Of a stretch of DNA of 64,000 bases, positions 7,778 to 11,749 are shown piece after piece. Position 1 is the stretch's first letter, and each line of letters starts with the position of its first letter. Position numbers and translations under genes: made by a program. Under the pieces are notes generated by a model that was given only the letters and a program-made list of their open reading frames with translations, was not told where the DNA came from and ran no database searches. Source of the stretch: Candidatus Micrarchaeota archaeon (GTDB lineage: Archaea; Micrarchaeota; Micrarchaeia; Micrarchaeales; CABMGC01); the NCBI GenBank assembly GCA_021851065.1, contig JAJZJQ010000001.1:9640-73639 (forward strand), written 5' to 3'.

Positions 7778-8794
7778 TCAGGAGTGGCCGGCAAGCCTTG
7801 CGCTCTTTCTGCGGTATAGGGCCATCGATATGGCCCATGTTATGACGAATATGCTTACTATCCCGATGCCCAGTATGCCGAAATCCAGGTTTTCGACATA
7901 GCTCCAAAGGCCCCCGTTAAGGTTGAACTCTATTGCCACAGCCTGGATCCACTCTACGCCGCCTATAAAGAAAGCCACAAGAACCGAGGCAGCAGTTATG
8001 GTCATGTTGTAATATATCTTCTTTAGCGCATTGCTGAAAGCCCAGTTGTATGCGTGCAGCATTACCACGCTGTCTGCAGTATCCAGTAGCGTCATTCCGG
8101 CAGTGAACATTATCGGGAGAACCATCACGTATGCTACCGGCATGTTTGCCGCAGCAATGCCGGTAATGGCAATAAGCGCCACTTCTGTAGCTGTATCAAA
8201 GCCCAGGCCAAAAAGGAATCCTACGGGATACATCTGCCAGCTGCGTTCTATGAACTTAAAGCGCTTGCCGAAGATCCTGTTCATAAGCCCCCTTTTGTCG
8301 AGAAGCTCGTTGAGGCGCTCCTGGTCGTATTTCTCCACGCTGAGCTTTCTGTAGAGCCTGTATATGTCTATGAATATCAGTACGTTGAGGATGCCGATGA
8401 CATAAAGAAAGAGCGCGGATACGGTTGTGCCGACTATCGCGCCCATGTTCTCAAGCGATGGTATGCTGTGGGCAACAAGTGTGCTTGCAATTACAAGGCC
8501 AAGTGAGAGAAGCACGACCACGGTAGAGTGGCCCAGTGAGAAGAACAGTCCTACGCCAACGGGCTTCTTTTTTTCCTGGACTAGCTTTCTTGTGGTGTTG
8601 TCTATTGCAGCTATGTGGTCGGCATCAAAGGCATGCCTCATGCCCAGGGTGTATGCTAGTATGCCTAGCCCCAGGAGCTTTGCGTAGAGCCCGCCCACAT
8701 AGAAGAGTGAAAGCCAGGCAGCAATGTTGAATGCGATAAGGAATGCAGCAGTCCATGCAAGCCAGAACCCGTAGGTGCCTTTGTTTGATAGCAT
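7778..8794 (-). CDS. NiCoT-family nickel/cobalt transporter (HoxN/NixA-like)
   Basis: 338-aa polytopic protein with NiCoT signatures RHAFDADHIAAIDNTTRK and GLGFDTATE; TATA-like tataaata at about 8816-8824 roughly 26 nt upstream of the start. Confidence 0.85.
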   Translation of the reverse strand: MLSNKGTYGFWLAWTAAFLIAFNIAAWLSLFYVGGLYAKLLGLGILAYTLGMRHAFDADHIAAIDNTTRKLVQEKKKPVGVGLFFSLGHSTVVVLLSLGLVIASTLVAHSIPSLENMGAIVGTTVSALFLYVIGILNVLIFIDIYRLYRKLSVEKYDQERLNELLDKRGLMNRIFGKRFKFIERSWQMYPVGFLFGLGFDTATEVALIAITGIAAANMPVAYVMVLPIMFTAGMTLLDTADSVVMLHAYNWAFSNALKKIYYNMTITAASVLVAFFIGGVEWIQAVAIEFNLNGGLWSYVENLDFGILGIGIVSIFVITWAISMALYRRKSARLAGHS

Positions 8795-8929
8795 GATAAG
8801 AACGTGCCGTGTAACGTATAAATAGCGCGGGCCCAGTGGCCGTGGATCTGCTGGAAGGCGTGCATGATGGCCGTTTCGCAGGCGTGCTGCCTTTGCCGAT
8901 TCGCGCAGCCGTTAGATGTAACATTTTTA

Positions 8930-8952
8930 TATATATCATAATATGATATATA
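8930..8952. promoter_or_regulatory. perfect 23-bp palindrome (11-bp arms, central A at 8941) overlapping the TATA box and start of the PadR::TRASH gene; candidate operator
   Basis: Checked base by base: tatatatcata-a-tatgatatata, positions 8930-8940 pair with 8952-8942; it sits inside the A/T-rich box tttttatatatat (8924-8936). Confidence 0.7.
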
Positions 8953-9377
8953 GTATGCCGGATATAGAGATAAAGAACTTGGTTAAGCTGTTCACTGTCC
9001 TGCTGCTTAGCGAGGATGGACAGTCGGGGTACGACATAATGAAGAATGTGGGAAGCAGGCTTGGGAGGAAGGCTAGCCCAGGTCAGATATATCCTTTCCT
9101 CAAGCAGCTTGAGCGCCACGGATATGTCACAGCAGGAGAGCGTGCGGGGCGGGACAGGCAGGCTTATTATCTTACTGCAGATGGGAAAAAGTTCGTAAGA
9201 CGGCTCTCTGAGAGGTTCGGCGATGTCTTTGATATGGTCATAAAGCCAAGGCTTACGGTATGTGCGCACTGCAGTTGCGAGATATACAAGGGCGCATATG
9301 TGGAAAAGATAGGAGGCAGGCCGCTGAGCTTTTGCTGTGAGAACTGCGCCAGAGGCTACAGAGCCCTGAATAGATGA
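8943..9377 (+). CDS. PadR-family winged-helix regulator fused to a C-terminal TRASH metal-binding domain
   Basis: PadR-like core (GYDIM...SPGQIYPFLKQLERHGYV...YYLTADGKKF); C-terminal CAHC-x20-CCENC fits the TRASH pattern C-x2-C-x19-22-C-x3-C; the alternative start ATG 8955 would be leaderless relative to the TATA. Confidence 0.8.
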   Translation: MIYSMPDIEIKNLVKLFTVLLLSEDGQSGYDIMKNVGSRLGRKASPGQIYPFLKQLERHGYVTAGERAGRDRQAYYLTADGKKFVRRLSERFGDVFDMVIKPRLTVCAHCSCEIYKGAYVEKIGGRPLSFCCENCARGYRALNR

Positions 9378-9499
9378 TGTTGGCGAGAGCATGGTAAATG
9401 CAATTGCTTTTTACGTCGGCATGGTTTCGGTGCAGGCACAGTGCGATATGCTGCAGGAGGATTGTCAAATAGGCAGGTCGTTTTTGGTATGGTGAATTT

Positions 9500-9640
9500 A
9501 TGAAAGACCCCGTATGCAAGATGGAAGTGGATGAAAAATCAGGAATTAGCAGCAGCCACAAGGGCAAGAGATATGTTTTCTGCTCTGCAGGCTGCAAGCA
9601 GGTTTTCGACAAGAAACCGGAAAACTATGCAAAAGGTTAG
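9500..9640 (+). CDS. 46-aa stand-alone TRASH/YHS-domain protein (putative metallochaperone, CopM-like)
   Basis: Not in the ORF track (below 60 aa). Hand-translated: MKDPVCKMEVDEKSGISSSHKGKRYVFCSAGCKQVFDKKPENYAKG*; same DPVC(K/G)M...YxFCSxxC motif as the CopA N-terminus; GGTGA Shine-Dalgarno site about 5 nt upstream. Confidence 0.75.
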   Translation: MKDPVCKMEVDEKSGISSSHKGKRYVFCSAGCKQVFDKKPENYAKG

Positions 9641-9679: not shown

Positions 9680-11749
9680 ATGGCAAATGATCCTGTATGC
9701 GGAATGTATGTTGAGGAAGGTAGTAGCGCGCTTACTAGTGATAAGGAAGGGAAGAGGTATTATTTCTGCAGCGCTACGTGCAAGCTCCAGTTCGATAAGC
9801 CAGAACTTGAGATGAGGATGCTGAAAAGGGCGCTTGCAGTGGCATGGCCCCTCACCATAGCTACAGCAGCGCTAACATATATGTCGCATTCCGTTTATGG
9901 CAGCTGCATGATGCTTGTGTTTGCCAGCATAGTCCAGTTCTATGCCGGGCGCAGATTCTACGCAGGAATAGCCGATGCAGTAAGGAACAGGTCGGCAAAC
10001 ATGGACACGCTTATAGCCATAGGTACCAGCGCTGCATTTGCGTATAGCACAATTGTCGTCTTGTTTCCAGCCGTCTTCCCAACAGGAGGCATCTATTATG
10101 ATACGTCCACGATGATAATAGCGCTTATACTTACAGGGACGTACATGCAAAGGATTGCGGAATCGAAGGCATCTAGCGCAGTTTCGGCGCTTGTGGCCCT
10201 GCAGCCCAGGATGGCGCACAGGATAGAGGAGGAGGACGTAACGGATATACCGCTAGAGCAGATTGCAGAAGGAGACATACTGCTCGTAAGGCCTGGGGAG
10301 AAGATACCTACAGATTCAAAGGTACTGGAGGGTGAAAGCTCTGTTGACGAATCGATGGTTACAGGGGAGAGCATGCCTGCAAAGAAAGGGAAGGGAGATA
10401 GCGTGACTGGCGGTACGACTAATTCCACAGGATCGCTTAGGATAAAGGTAATCAAAGTCGGAGATGATACGGCACTGGCCCAGATAATAAGGGTGGTCAA
10501 GGATGCGGCCTCGAGCAAGGTACCGATACAAAGGCTAGCCGATAAGGTATCATCGTATTTCGTACCTATCGTGGTGCTGACAGGCATTGCAGCCTCTGTT
10601 GCATGGTATTTTGCAGGAGGCGTGGGCCTGAATGCTGCAGTGCTGATCTTTGTGAGTGTGCTGATAATAGCCTGTCCGTGTGCGCTGGGAATAGCAACGC
10701 CTGCAGCGCTTCTTGTAGCATCTGGAAAAGCGGCAAGCGAGGGAATACTCGTAAAGAGCGGGGAGAGCCTGCAGATAGCCAGCAAAGTGAACGTGATAGT
10801 TCTTGATAAAACAGGCACGCTTACAAAGGGCATGCCACAGGTCACAGACATCATAGCGCTTTCGACTTACAGCAAGAGGCAGGTGCTAGCATTCGCAGCA
10901 GCAGCCGAGATAAACTCAGAGCATGCGCTAGGCAAAGCAATAGTATCAAGAGCAAAGGATGAGGGAATAAAAGTGCAGTTCCCAAAGAAGTTCCATTATA
11001 GGCAGGGCCTTGGAGTGACTGCATCTGGCAGAGACGGGAAGAGGATAGTGGTTGGAAGCCCTGAGATGTTTGGCAAGGTCCTTGGCGCAGAGCATAAGAC
11101 GCGGCTTTGGGAATTGGAATCTGATGGGAAGACCGCACTATTAATTGGAGTTGGAGGGAGGGTTGCCGGGATCATAGCGCTTGCAGACATGCTTAAGGAT
11201 GACAGCGCTAAGGCAGTAAAGGCACTAAGGGACTGTGGAAGGGAGATATGGCTTGTTACAGGGGACAATGAACGCGTTGCGCGTGCGATTGCAAGGCAGC
11301 TGGGCATAGACAATGTAATCGCACAGGCCAAACCCGAACAGAAAATGGAGAAGATCGAGCAGCTGCAGAGGTCTGGCAGGGTTGTGGCAATGGTGGGCGA
11401 TGGGATTAACGATGCGCCTGCCCTCACAAAGGCTGACCTTGGGATAGCCATAGGAGCTGGCACTGAGGTGGCAGTGCAATCTGGAGGGATCATACTTGTA
11501 AGAAACAGCGTATACGATGCTTATGTGGCGCTTGAGCTGGGCAGTAGGACGATGGCAAAAATAAGACAGAACCTGCTGTGGGCCTTTGGGTACAACGCTG
11601 TGCTTATCCCTATAGCGGCAGGCATGCTCATACCCTTCTTTGGAATAGGCATCTATAGCTTCCTGCCAATGCTTGCGGCGCTGGCTATGGCCTTTAGCTC
11701 GGTCACCGTGGTGTCTAACTCTCTTTTGCTGACAAGATTCGTGGCGTGA
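9680..11749 (+). CDS. copA: Cu(I)-type P1B-1 ATPase with an N-terminal TRASH/YHS domain
   Basis: [19 protein letters not shown]-terminus; TM CPC motif ([12 protein letters not shown]); DKTGTLT; [10 protein letters not shown]; YN (GYNAVLIP) and MxxSS (MAFSSV) copper signatures. Confidence 0.9.

What the first reader, a model, noticed from the sequence alone, without database searches (positions are those of the whole stretch)
8943..9377. PadR-type winged helix fused to a TRASH metal-sensing domain
SEEN: the N-terminal ~95 aa match the PadR pattern (GYDIM.., SPGQIYPFLKQLERHGYV, YYLTADGKKF). The C-terminal 40 aa carry CAHC-x20-C-CEN-C, which satisfies the TRASH spacing C-x2-C-x19-22-C-x3-C.

ESTABLISHED: TRASH domains were defined in archaeal metal trafficking and sensing proteins. 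The characterised Sulfolobus copper regulator (CopT/CopR) couples TRASH to a different DNA-binding fold.

INFERENCE: this protein may be an independent domain-shuffled solution, with a PadR DNA-binding head and a TRASH sensor, for copper or other thiophilic-metal sensing.
Basis: partly seen in the sequence, partly recalled or inferred. Interest (0 to 1): 0.55.

Follow-up and report, generated by a model that had tools for sequence, protein, structure and literature searches.

The report
PadR-TRASH copper regulator of cop operon
A small gene in a mine-drainage Micrarchaeota genome joins a PadR-type DNA-binding domain to a cysteine-rich TRASH metal-binding tail; it sits first in a copper-export operon behind a palindromic DNA site conserved across many archaeal phyla, so it is very probably an unstudied type of archaeal copper switch.

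Summary
The ORF at 8943-9377 is real, although its true start is probably ATG 8955 (140 aa). Its N-terminus is a PadR winged helix (Pfam E 1.8e-13; fold matches PadR, LmrR and RosR).

Its C-terminus is a TRASH-fold module. It carries six invariant cysteines, C-x2-C-x-C-x18-C-C-x2-C, which contains the canonical TRASH spacing.

- A CopA-type P1B ATPase lies within 5 kb in 66 of 80 related loci from DPANN, Hadarchaeota, Bathyarchaeia and other archaea.
- The palindrome ATATC-N7-GATAT lies within 200 nt upstream of the regulator in 65 of 80 loci, against 0.014 expected.
- In this window the palindrome spans the TATA box to the leaderless start. This suggests that the regulator represses its own operon (regulator, YHS chaperone, CopA) and that Cu(I) relieves the repression.

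The characterised archaeal CopR/CopT is Lrp/AsnC plus TRASH. This is the same sensor domain on a different DNA-binding scaffold.

No paper describing the architecture was found, and databases call it only "PadR family". It is not rare: relatives occur in 316 species genomes and form 58 clusters at 50% identity. This scan had already noted it about 100 times on other DNA, mostly from Asgard archaea.

Verdict: a new variant of a known kind, of moderate interest and directly testable. Metal binding, metal specificity and the direction of regulation are untested.

The parts
8955..9377 (+). Regulator gene, PadR-TRASH. The probable true start is ATG 8955 (140 aa); the listed ORF starts at 8943 (144 aa).
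   Evidence: ORF listed. Homologues start at the residue aligned to M5, and the database copy is 140 aa. 8943 lies inside the operator, too close to the TATA box.
9003..9200 (+). PadR winged helix-turn-helix domain (residues 21-86 in 144-aa numbering). The recognition helix SPGQIYPFLKQL is nearly invariant.
   Evidence: Pfam PF03551, E 1.8e-13. Foldseek matches PadR, LmrR and RosR at E 1e-5 to 1e-4. Invariant S45, Y50, P51, F52, L53 and L56.
9252..9368 (+). C-terminal TRASH-fold module (residues 104-142) with C107, H109, C110, C112, C131, C132 and C135. It follows a low-confidence linker at residues 100-106.
8930..8952 (.). Perfect 23-bp palindrome TATATATCATAATATGATATATA, with core ATATC-N7-GATAT at 8933-8949. 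Predicted operator of the regulator.
   Evidence: Read directly. It is the only exact core match in the window and one of 3 in the 1.13-Mb genome; the other two lie inside ORFs. The same core, with at most 1 mismatch, lies within 200 nt upstream of the regulator in 65 of 80 related loci, against 0.014 expected.
8924..8933 (+). A/T-rich box TTTTTATATA, the probable archaeal TATA box. It lies about 25 nt before ATG 8955, which implies a leaderless transcript. Its 3' end overlaps the operator.
   Evidence: Sequence. The block ACATATTTATATAT-operator is conserved in Micrarchaeota loci L001-L033. Promoter function is inferred, not tested.
9500..9640 (+). 46-aa YHS/TRASH-type mini-protein, a probable Cu(I) chaperone (CopM/CopT-like).
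   Evidence: Pfam YHS PF04945, E 2.5e-16. It lies between the regulator and copA in most Micrarchaeota loci.
9680..11749 (+). CopA, a P1B-1 type Cu(I)-exporting ATPase with an N-terminal YHS domain.
   Evidence: TIGR01511 at 568.7 bits, cut-off 397, and YHS E 6.4e-11. Motifs CPC, N-x6-YN-x4-P, M-x2-SS and DKTGT are present.

Best explanation
The gene encodes a metal-responsive transcription regulator of a cop operon (regulator, YHS chaperone, CopA).

Shown:
- It has a PadR-type winged helix and a six-cysteine TRASH-fold tail.
- Across many archaeal phyla it sits beside a copA-type ATPase.
- In the same loci it sits behind one conserved palindrome, GATATATC-N7-GATATATC (here TATATATC-ATAATAT-GATATATA).

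Inferred:
- A PadR-like dimer binds this palindrome. The ATATC and GATAT cores are 12 bp apart centre to centre.
- In this genome the site spans from the TATA box to the leaderless start. The bound protein would therefore block TBP/TFB/RNA polymerase and repress its own operon.
- When Cu(I) rises, possibly handed over by the YHS chaperone, the thiolates of the TRASH tail bind it. This may form a multinuclear Cu(I)-thiolate centre or displace a structural Zn.
- The dimer then changes shape and leaves the DNA, and the chaperone and pump are made.

The logic resembles the bacterial CopY operon. The sensor domain is that of archaeal CopR/CopT.
For: - Domains: PadR at E 1.8e-13. PadR, LmrR and RosR folds are the top matches. 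The TRASH assignment rests.
- Conservation: six Cys are invariant in 29 proteins. C-x2-C-x-C is in all 80 loci, and all six Cys are invariant in the 40 C-termini aligned.
- Context: a CopA-type ATPase lies within 5 kb in 66 of 80 loci. 38 are co-directional downstream and 28 are divergent. Several of the other 14 loci are cut by contig ends.
- Pump specificity: the local CopA carries the P1B-1 Cu(I) signature motifs and passes TIGR01511.
- Operator: the palindrome is upstream of the regulator in 65 of 80 loci, against 0.014 expected per 210 nt. Its consensus is given. The genome holds only 3 exact cores, and the other two lie inside ORFs.
- Recognition helix: nearly invariant, which fits the conserved operator.
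- No alternative regulator: no canonical Arc_trans_TRASH (Lrp-type CopR) was found in this genome, which is 87.5% complete.
- Habitat: mine-drainage metagenomes.
Against: - No experiment exists. Metal binding, metal identity, DNA binding and the direction of regulation are all inferred.
- The window protein's own TRASH hits are below Pfam cut-offs (best 21.7 bits against 27).
- Structural matches of the 45-residue domain are statistically weak (Foldseek E >= 0.037, VIA Z <= 5).
- In the distant lineages the operator lies 40-60 nt before the start codon, apparently upstream of the TATA box. That position could equally serve activation, as reported for Lrp-type CopR in Pyrococcus and Saccharolobus (PMC7830388).
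- Co-transcription of the three genes here is not shown. The 122-nt gap after the regulator contains two T5 runs.
- Cysteine-rich TRASH-like modules such as eL24 and MYM fingers often bind structural Zn.
Confidence: 0.65

Rival explanations
1. It is a copper-responsive activator or dual regulator, like Lrp-type CopR in Pyrococcus and Saccharolobus. It stays on the DNA and stimulates the promoter when Cu(I) binds, rather than acting as a simple repressor that falls off.
For: In the distant loci the palindrome is centred 40-60 nt before the start codon, upstream of an A/T box. That position is typical of archaeal activators. PMC7830388 reports that CopR binds directly upstream of the BRE and activates copA.
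Against: In this window and in about 35 Micrarchaeota loci the site is centred only 12-25 nt before the start codon. There it overlaps the TATA-to-start interval, a position that occludes the pre-initiation complex. PadR-family proteins characterised so far are mostly repressors; this point is from my own knowledge, not tested here.
Confidence: 0.15
2. The TRASH tail is a structural Zn module, for folding or dimerisation, or a thiol redox sensor. The protein then responds to a signal other than copper, such as oxidative or disulfide stress.
For: The best structural matches, eL24/Rlp24 and MYM, are not metal sensors. The closest solved sequence relative, Ta0938, has no known function. Six Cys could form disulfides.
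Against: Linkage to copA/YHS is conserved in 66 of 80 loci over several phyla and in two gene orders. The domain aligns to the TRASH domain of a canonical Lrp-type CopR-like protein at E 8.4e-6 and to YHS chaperones at E 1.5e-4.
Confidence: 0.1
3. It senses another thiophilic metal (Ag, Cd, Zn, Hg, or Ni/Co) rather than copper.
For: A NicO nickel/cobalt transporter gene lies divergently next to it. Cys-rich sites are promiscuous, and P1B-1 pumps also export Ag(I).
Against: NicO is absent from all 80 related loci, so that neighbourhood is local. The conserved partner is a pump with the Cu(I)/Ag(I) P1B-1 motifs, not the Zn/Cd type.
Confidence: 0.1

Closest known systems
Archaeal CopR/CopT copper regulators (Saccharolobus solfataricus SSO2652, Pyrococcus furiosus PF0739, Thermococcus onnurineus TON_0836)
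   Same: - It has a C-terminal TRASH metal-sensing domain with the same C-x2-C...F-C-C-x2-C pattern. hhalign to a canonical Lrp/AsnC-TRASH protein gives E 8.4e-6.
- It sits in a cop cluster with a TRASH/YHS chaperone and CopA (PMC7830388).
   Different: - The DNA-binding part is PadR (PF03551), not Lrp/AsnC HTH plus a RAM domain. A PadR-like dimer is therefore expected, rather than the CopR octamer.
- It has one extra invariant Cys (C112).
- The operator is different: GATATATC-N7-GATATATC, against TTNNCAWWWTGNNAA for P. furiosus CopR.
- Here the operator overlaps the core promoter.
CopY of Enterococcus hirae and Lactococcus (repressor of copYZAB); comparison from my own knowledge, not tested here
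   Same: - It is a small winged-helix repressor with a Cys-rich C-terminal tail.
- It is encoded as the first gene of the copper operon it would control.
- A chaperone gene lies next to it.
- It has a palindromic operator at its own promoter.
   Different: - The DNA-binding family is unrelated: CopY is BlaI/MecI-type, and no such Pfam hit appears.
- CopY's metal site is a short C-x-C-x4-C-x-C tail, not a folded TRASH domain.
- CopY is bacterial.
PadR family regulators (B. subtilis PadR 5X11, L. lactis LmrR, H. salinarum RosR)
   Same: - The wHTH fold and family HMM match.
- The size before the tail resembles the short, roughly 110-aa subfamily.
- The target is palindromic, with half-site cores about 12 bp apart.
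   Different: - Known members sense phenolic acids, drugs or oxidative stress through the dimer interface or a helical C-domain. None of the PDB matches carries a TRASH domain.
- No paper held in the library links PadR to a TRASH domain.
Ta0938 of Thermoplasma acidophilum (PDB 2FQH, Pfam PF11494)
   Same: It is the closest solved sequence relative of the C-terminal domain (profile E 4.9e-4). It shares C-x2-C ... F-C-C-x2-C-A.
   Different: Ta0938 has no DNA-binding domain and lacks the C-x-C extension. Its function is unknown.

Membership tests
PadR family (Pfam PF03551) | Match to the family HMM above the curated cut-off | tested here: met
   50.7 bits against a cut-off of 27, E 1.8e-13, residues 21-86.
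PadR family (Pfam PF03551) | Winged helix-turn-helix fold followed by a C-terminal helix, as in solved PadR proteins | tested here: met
   AF2 model with pLDDT 79.7 shows H13-24, H29-40, H46-58, a β-wing at 62-77 and H79-99. Foldseek's top hits are PadR-family chains, TM about 0.65-0.73 on the target.
PadR family (Pfam PF03551) | Dimer that binds a palindromic operator | not testable with these tools
   There is only indirect support: a conserved palindrome upstream in 65 of 80 loci.
TRASH domain superfamily (Arc_trans_TRASH, YHS, zf-FCS, eL24, PF24273, Ta0938) | Cys pattern C-x2-C-x19-22-C-x3-C | tested here: met
   The regex matches residues 107-135. The four positions are invariant in the family.
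TRASH domain superfamily (Arc_trans_TRASH, YHS, zf-FCS, eL24, PF24273, Ta0938) | HMM match to a TRASH-type family above the curated cut-off | tested here: inconclusive
   The window protein's best hit is 21.7 bits (Ta0938), and PF24273 gives 18.6 bits, both below 27. All 40 family C-termini hit PF24273, best E 4.7e-8, and many relatives carry a precomputed PF24273 hit.
TRASH domain superfamily (Arc_trans_TRASH, YHS, zf-FCS, eL24, PF24273, Ta0938) | TRASH fold (β-hairpins plus a C-terminal helix, as in eL24 or the MYM finger) | tested here: met
   The domain model has pLDDT 87.5. The Foldseek list is dominated by eL24/Rlp24 and includes 2das, 'TRASH domain of ZMYM5', at TMq 0.58-0.72. VIA's top hit is eL24 at Z 5.0, rmsd 2.4 Å over 44 residues. 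The statistics are weak because the domain is only 45 residues.
TRASH domain superfamily (Arc_trans_TRASH, YHS, zf-FCS, eL24, PF24273, Ta0938) | Binds a heavy metal through the cysteines | not testable with these tools
   This needs ICP-MS or spectroscopy on purified protein.
Archaeal CopR/CopT (Lrp/AsnC-TRASH copper regulators) | N-terminal Lrp/AsnC-type HTH with an AsnC/RAM oligomerisation domain | tested here: not met
   There is no HTH_24, HTH_AsnC-type or AsnC_trans_reg hit. A true member from genome G204 shows all three.
Archaeal CopR/CopT (Lrp/AsnC-TRASH copper regulators) | C-terminal TRASH domain | tested here: met
   hhalign of the C-terminal profile against the canonical protein gives E 8.4e-6 over 40 columns.
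Archaeal CopR/CopT (Lrp/AsnC-TRASH copper regulators) | Encoded in a cop cluster next to copA, with or without a TRASH/YHS chaperone | tested here: met
   Window gene order. 66 of 80 related loci.
Archaeal CopR/CopT (Lrp/AsnC-TRASH copper regulators) | Copper-dependent change in DNA binding or transcription | not testable with these tools
   No RNA run holds the locus. No experiment is available.

The most novel reading that the evidence does not exclude
PadR-TRASH is a second major class of archaeal Cu(I) sensor, unrelated in its DNA-binding scaffold to CopR. It would be the main copper switch of DPANN archaea, and by this scan's earlier notes also of Asgard archaea.

It would recognise one operator word, GATATATC-N7-GATATATC, conserved across phyla. 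It would use a six-thiolate TRASH site, possibly a multinuclear Cu(I) cluster or Zn/Cu exchange, to release a PadR dimer from DNA.

If so, copper regulons of uncultured archaea could be read directly from sequence.
Probability: 0.5. Interest if true: 0.6.

Novelty: new variant of a known kind. Interest (0 to 1): 0.5.

Why it matters
Copper sensing in archaea is known experimentally only for the Lrp-type CopR. Transcription regulation in DPANN archaea such as Micrarchaeota is almost unexplored.

This family offers a compact regulator of about 140 aa, a sharply defined operator conserved across phyla, and an obvious target operon. The hypothesis can therefore be tested directly with EMSA, metal titration and reporter assays.

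A homologue exists in the cultivated Ca. Micrarchaeum sp. A_DKE (locus L055).

The family also shows the TRASH sensor module reused on two different DNA-binding scaffolds. Finally, it would improve annotation: these genes are now labelled only "PadR family transcriptional regulator".

Tried and rejected
- RNA evidence: no RNA holder was listed for the locus. Only mine-drainage DNA runs hold it.
- Identity of HVO_1752, the seed of PF24273: the one paper that mentions it is unrelated, and I could not reach a Haloferax genome. PF24273 also hits a canonical Lrp-type protein, so it does not mark PadR fusions specifically.
- Halobacteriota sampling: I tried to reach this phylum through a MAG labelled Methanosarcinales. 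The sampled genomes were 0.7-1.6 Mb, evidently a DPANN group, so the result is uninformative for haloarchaea.
- Ferroplasma CopY: I could not determine whether it is PadR-type or Lrp-type. The original papers are not held, and the review gives no domain detail.
- Plasmids: tblastn found only PadR-only bacterial hits.
- NicO as part of the system: rejected, because it is absent from all 80 related loci.
- Extra operator copies: the other two exact cores in the genome lie inside ORFs. No convincing second site lies before YHS or copA in the related loci; only 3 of 45 background hits do, and each has a mismatch.
- Bacterial sigma-70 promoter and terminator scan: not used, as it does not apply to an archaeon.

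Full report
**What is there**

The window holds an ORF at 8943-9377 (+) of 144 aa. Pfam assigns residues 21-86 to PadR (PF03551, E 1.8e-13, 50.7 bits, cut-off 27). NCBIfam gives only sub-threshold PadR paralogue hits. PDB sequence matches are all PadR-family proteins.

An AlphaFold2 model built on 29 homologues (pLDDT 79.7) shows three helices, a β-wing and a C-terminal helix. A low-confidence linker at residues 100-106 and a small β/α module follow. Foldseek against the PDB returns PadR, LmrR, Rv3488, TA0346 and the haloarchaeal RosR at E 1e-5 to 3e-4.

**The tail**

The cysteines sit at 107, 110, 112, 131, 132 and 135. The canonical TRASH pattern C-x2-C-x19-22-C-x3-C matches residues 107-135.

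In 29 homologues down to 34% identity, C107, C110, C112, F130, C131, C132, C135 and A136 are invariant. C-x2-C-x-C is present in all 80 related genomic loci, and H109 in 77 of them. The F-C-C-x2-C-A half is invariant in the 40 C-termini aligned.

The window protein's own Pfam hits on the tail are sub-threshold: Ta0938, TRASH_HVO_1752_C, ATPase-cat_bd and Arc_trans_TRASH. Across 40 family C-termini, however:
- 40 hit PF24273 (best E 4.7e-8)
- 38 hit Ta0938
- 38 hit ATPase-cat_bd
- 18 hit Arc_trans_TRASH
- 12 hit zf-FCS
- 12 hit Ribosomal_L24e

These are all TRASH-type models. A profile of the tail finds Ta0938 (2FQH, E 4.9e-4), then eL24 and a MYM finger in the PDB.

The tail folded alone (pLDDT 87.5) matches eL24/Rlp24 and 'TRASH domain of ZMYM5' (TMq 0.58-0.72, but E >= 0.037). 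With VIA-align the top hit is eL24 at Z 5.0, and the copper chaperone NosL scores Z 4.2. The scores are weak because the domain has only 45 residues, but the hit lists are consistent.

Profile-profile comparison gives two results:
- E 1.5e-4 to the YHS chaperones of the same loci.
- E 8.4e-6 (probability 83%) to the TRASH domain of a canonical Lrp/AsnC + AsnC_trans_reg + Arc_trans_TRASH protein from genome G204. In that alignment C107, C110, C131, C132 and C135 align to cysteines, and C112 is extra.

**Surroundings**

Downstream lie a 46-aa YHS protein (9500-9640, Pfam YHS E 2.5e-16) and a 689-aa P-type ATPase (9680-11749). The ATPase has an N-terminal YHS domain and passes TIGR01511 at 568.7 bits against a cut-off of 397. 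It carries the CPC, N-x6-YN-x4-P, M-x2-SS and DKTGT motifs. From my own knowledge of the Argüello classification, these mark Cu(I)/Ag(I) P1B-1 pumps.

Upstream, in divergent orientation, is a NicO/NicT transporter. NicO is absent from all 80 related loci, so it is not part of the conserved unit.

The genome is a 1.13-Mb Micrarchaeota MAG, 87.5% complete. The DNA occurs in mine-drainage metagenomes.

**Relatives**

A 90%-cluster search finds 51 full-length relatives, all about 140 aa and named at most 'PadR family'.

Searching longer proteins with the tail profile finds 2069 proteins at E <= 0.01. Nearly all of the best 120 are PadR fusions, many with PF24273 precomputed. In the 50%-identity library, 58 clusters reach E <= 1e-30.

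In one genome per species, 316 candidate stretches encode a relative. The best 80 come from Micrarchaeota, Marsarchaeota, Aenigmatarchaeota, Woesearchaeota, Nanohaloarchaea, Iainarchaeota/Diapherotrites, Hadarchaeota, Hydrothermarchaeales, Bathyarchaeia and a MAG labelled Thaumarchaeota. They also include the cultivated Ca. Micrarchaeum sp. A_DKE.

Within a sample of 201 genomes of the phylum, about 29 carry a full-length copy (two of the sampled genomes, G197 and G029, are unpublished and have only PadR-only matches). The gene is therefore accessory.

A CopA-type ATPase lies within 5 kb in 66 of 80 loci, 38 co-directional downstream and 28 divergent. Several of the remaining loci end at contig edges.

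**The operator**

Positions 8930-8952 form a perfect 23-bp palindrome with core ATATC-N7-GATAT. The same core, allowing one mismatch, lies within 200 nt upstream of the regulator in 65 of 80 loci. The background rate is 0.014 per 210 nt in the rest of those loci. The consensus in distant lineages is GATATATC-N7-GATATATC.

The own genome has three exact cores. The other two lie inside ORFs.

In Micrarchaeota the site is centred 12-25 nt before the start codon and directly follows, or overlaps, a TTTATATA box. In other lineages it is centred 40-60 nt upstream.

With the TATA box at about 8924-8933, transcription should start near 8955. That fits a leaderless mRNA starting at the ATG used by all homologues (MPDIE...), and it argues against the listed start at 8943.

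**How it most likely works**

Two things are shown: the architecture, and the conserved regulator-operator-copA association.

The rest is inferred:
- A PadR-type dimer occupies the palindrome and, in this genome, blocks assembly of the transcription machinery on its own operon.
- Cu(I) binding to the six-thiolate tail releases or remodels the dimer and derepresses the chaperone and the pump.

The layout resembles the bacterial CopY operon (my own knowledge). The sensor domain is that of archaeal CopR.

Three rivals remain open: an activator or dual role as reported for Lrp-type CopR (PMC7830388), a purely structural or redox role for the tail, and a different thiophilic metal.

**Comparison with what is known**

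Characterised archaeal copper regulators are Lrp/AsnC-TRASH proteins. They form octamers and bind TTNNCAWWWTGNNAA upstream of the BRE (PMC7830388). This protein fails the Lrp/AsnC criterion and has a different operator. It works like a CopR but is not a member of that family.

Genome G204 carries both types: the PadR form directly before copA (L080), and the Lrp form beside a YHS gene (L098). This genome has no canonical Arc_trans_TRASH match.

Literature searches gave the following:
- 'TRASH domain' with PadR: no paper.
- Related term sets: nothing relevant.
- A Halobacterium proteome paper mentions copper-induced PadR regulators, but without TRASH domains.

This scan's own notes already record the PadR-TRASH architecture about 100 times in at least 67 other genomes, mostly Asgard. 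Those are unchecked AI notes and are not independent evidence, but they show the family reaches further than my 80 loci.

**Verdict**

The feature is a new variant of a known kind: a TRASH-based archaeal copper regulator on a PadR scaffold. It is widespread, unstudied and easy to test. Interest is 0.5.

Noticed in passing
window 7778-8794 (-): A NicO/NicT-type Ni/Co transporter gene diverges from the regulator. A TTTATA box lies about 25 nt before its ATG, which suggests a leaderless transcript. NicO is absent from all 80 related loci, so the 'metal island' pairing looks local.
   Followed up: partly
L024, L033, L041, L042, L056, L066, L077, L078 (upstream of the regulator): The 8-mer GATATATC is itself self-complementary. 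Several loci carry a second, overlapping operator offset by exactly 15 bp, giving three 8-mers in a row. This suggests cooperative or tandem binding.
   Followed up: no
L098:1027-1659 and L080:5001-5420 (both genome G204): One genome carries both a canonical Lrp/AsnC-TRASH regulator, next to a YHS gene at L098:790-924, and the PadR-TRASH regulator directly before copA. The two classes can therefore coexist.
   Followed up: partly
P0234 (309 aa), P0226 (227 aa): These are longer relatives in which the PadR-TRASH unit is preceded by about 130-200 extra residues, so they are fused forms. An earlier scan note mentions a nuclease fusion in Asgard archaea.
   Followed up: no
L048, L054, L056, L026, L034; G201: These MAGs are labelled 'Methanosarcinales' or 'bacterium'. 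G201 (L048) is 1.1 Mb, and the sampled genomes of its phylum are 0.7-1.6 Mb, so the deposited labels are probably wrong and these look like DPANN-type archaea.
   Followed up: partly
row 16: The protein atlas lists a bacterial cluster of 93 members with ArsR-type HTH_5 fused to a YHS domain. This would be a third DNA-binding scaffold joined to a TRASH/YHS-type sensor.
   Followed up: no
L033:1485, L069:917, L074:6609 and 9042: These are perfect extra copies of the operator core away from the regulator promoter in some related loci. They may mark further regulon members.
   Followed up: no
window 9378-9499: The 122-nt gap between the regulator and the YHS gene contains two T5 runs, which could be archaeal termination or attenuation signals, and no clear TATA box. 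In close relatives such as L007 the gap is only 34 nt.
   Followed up: no
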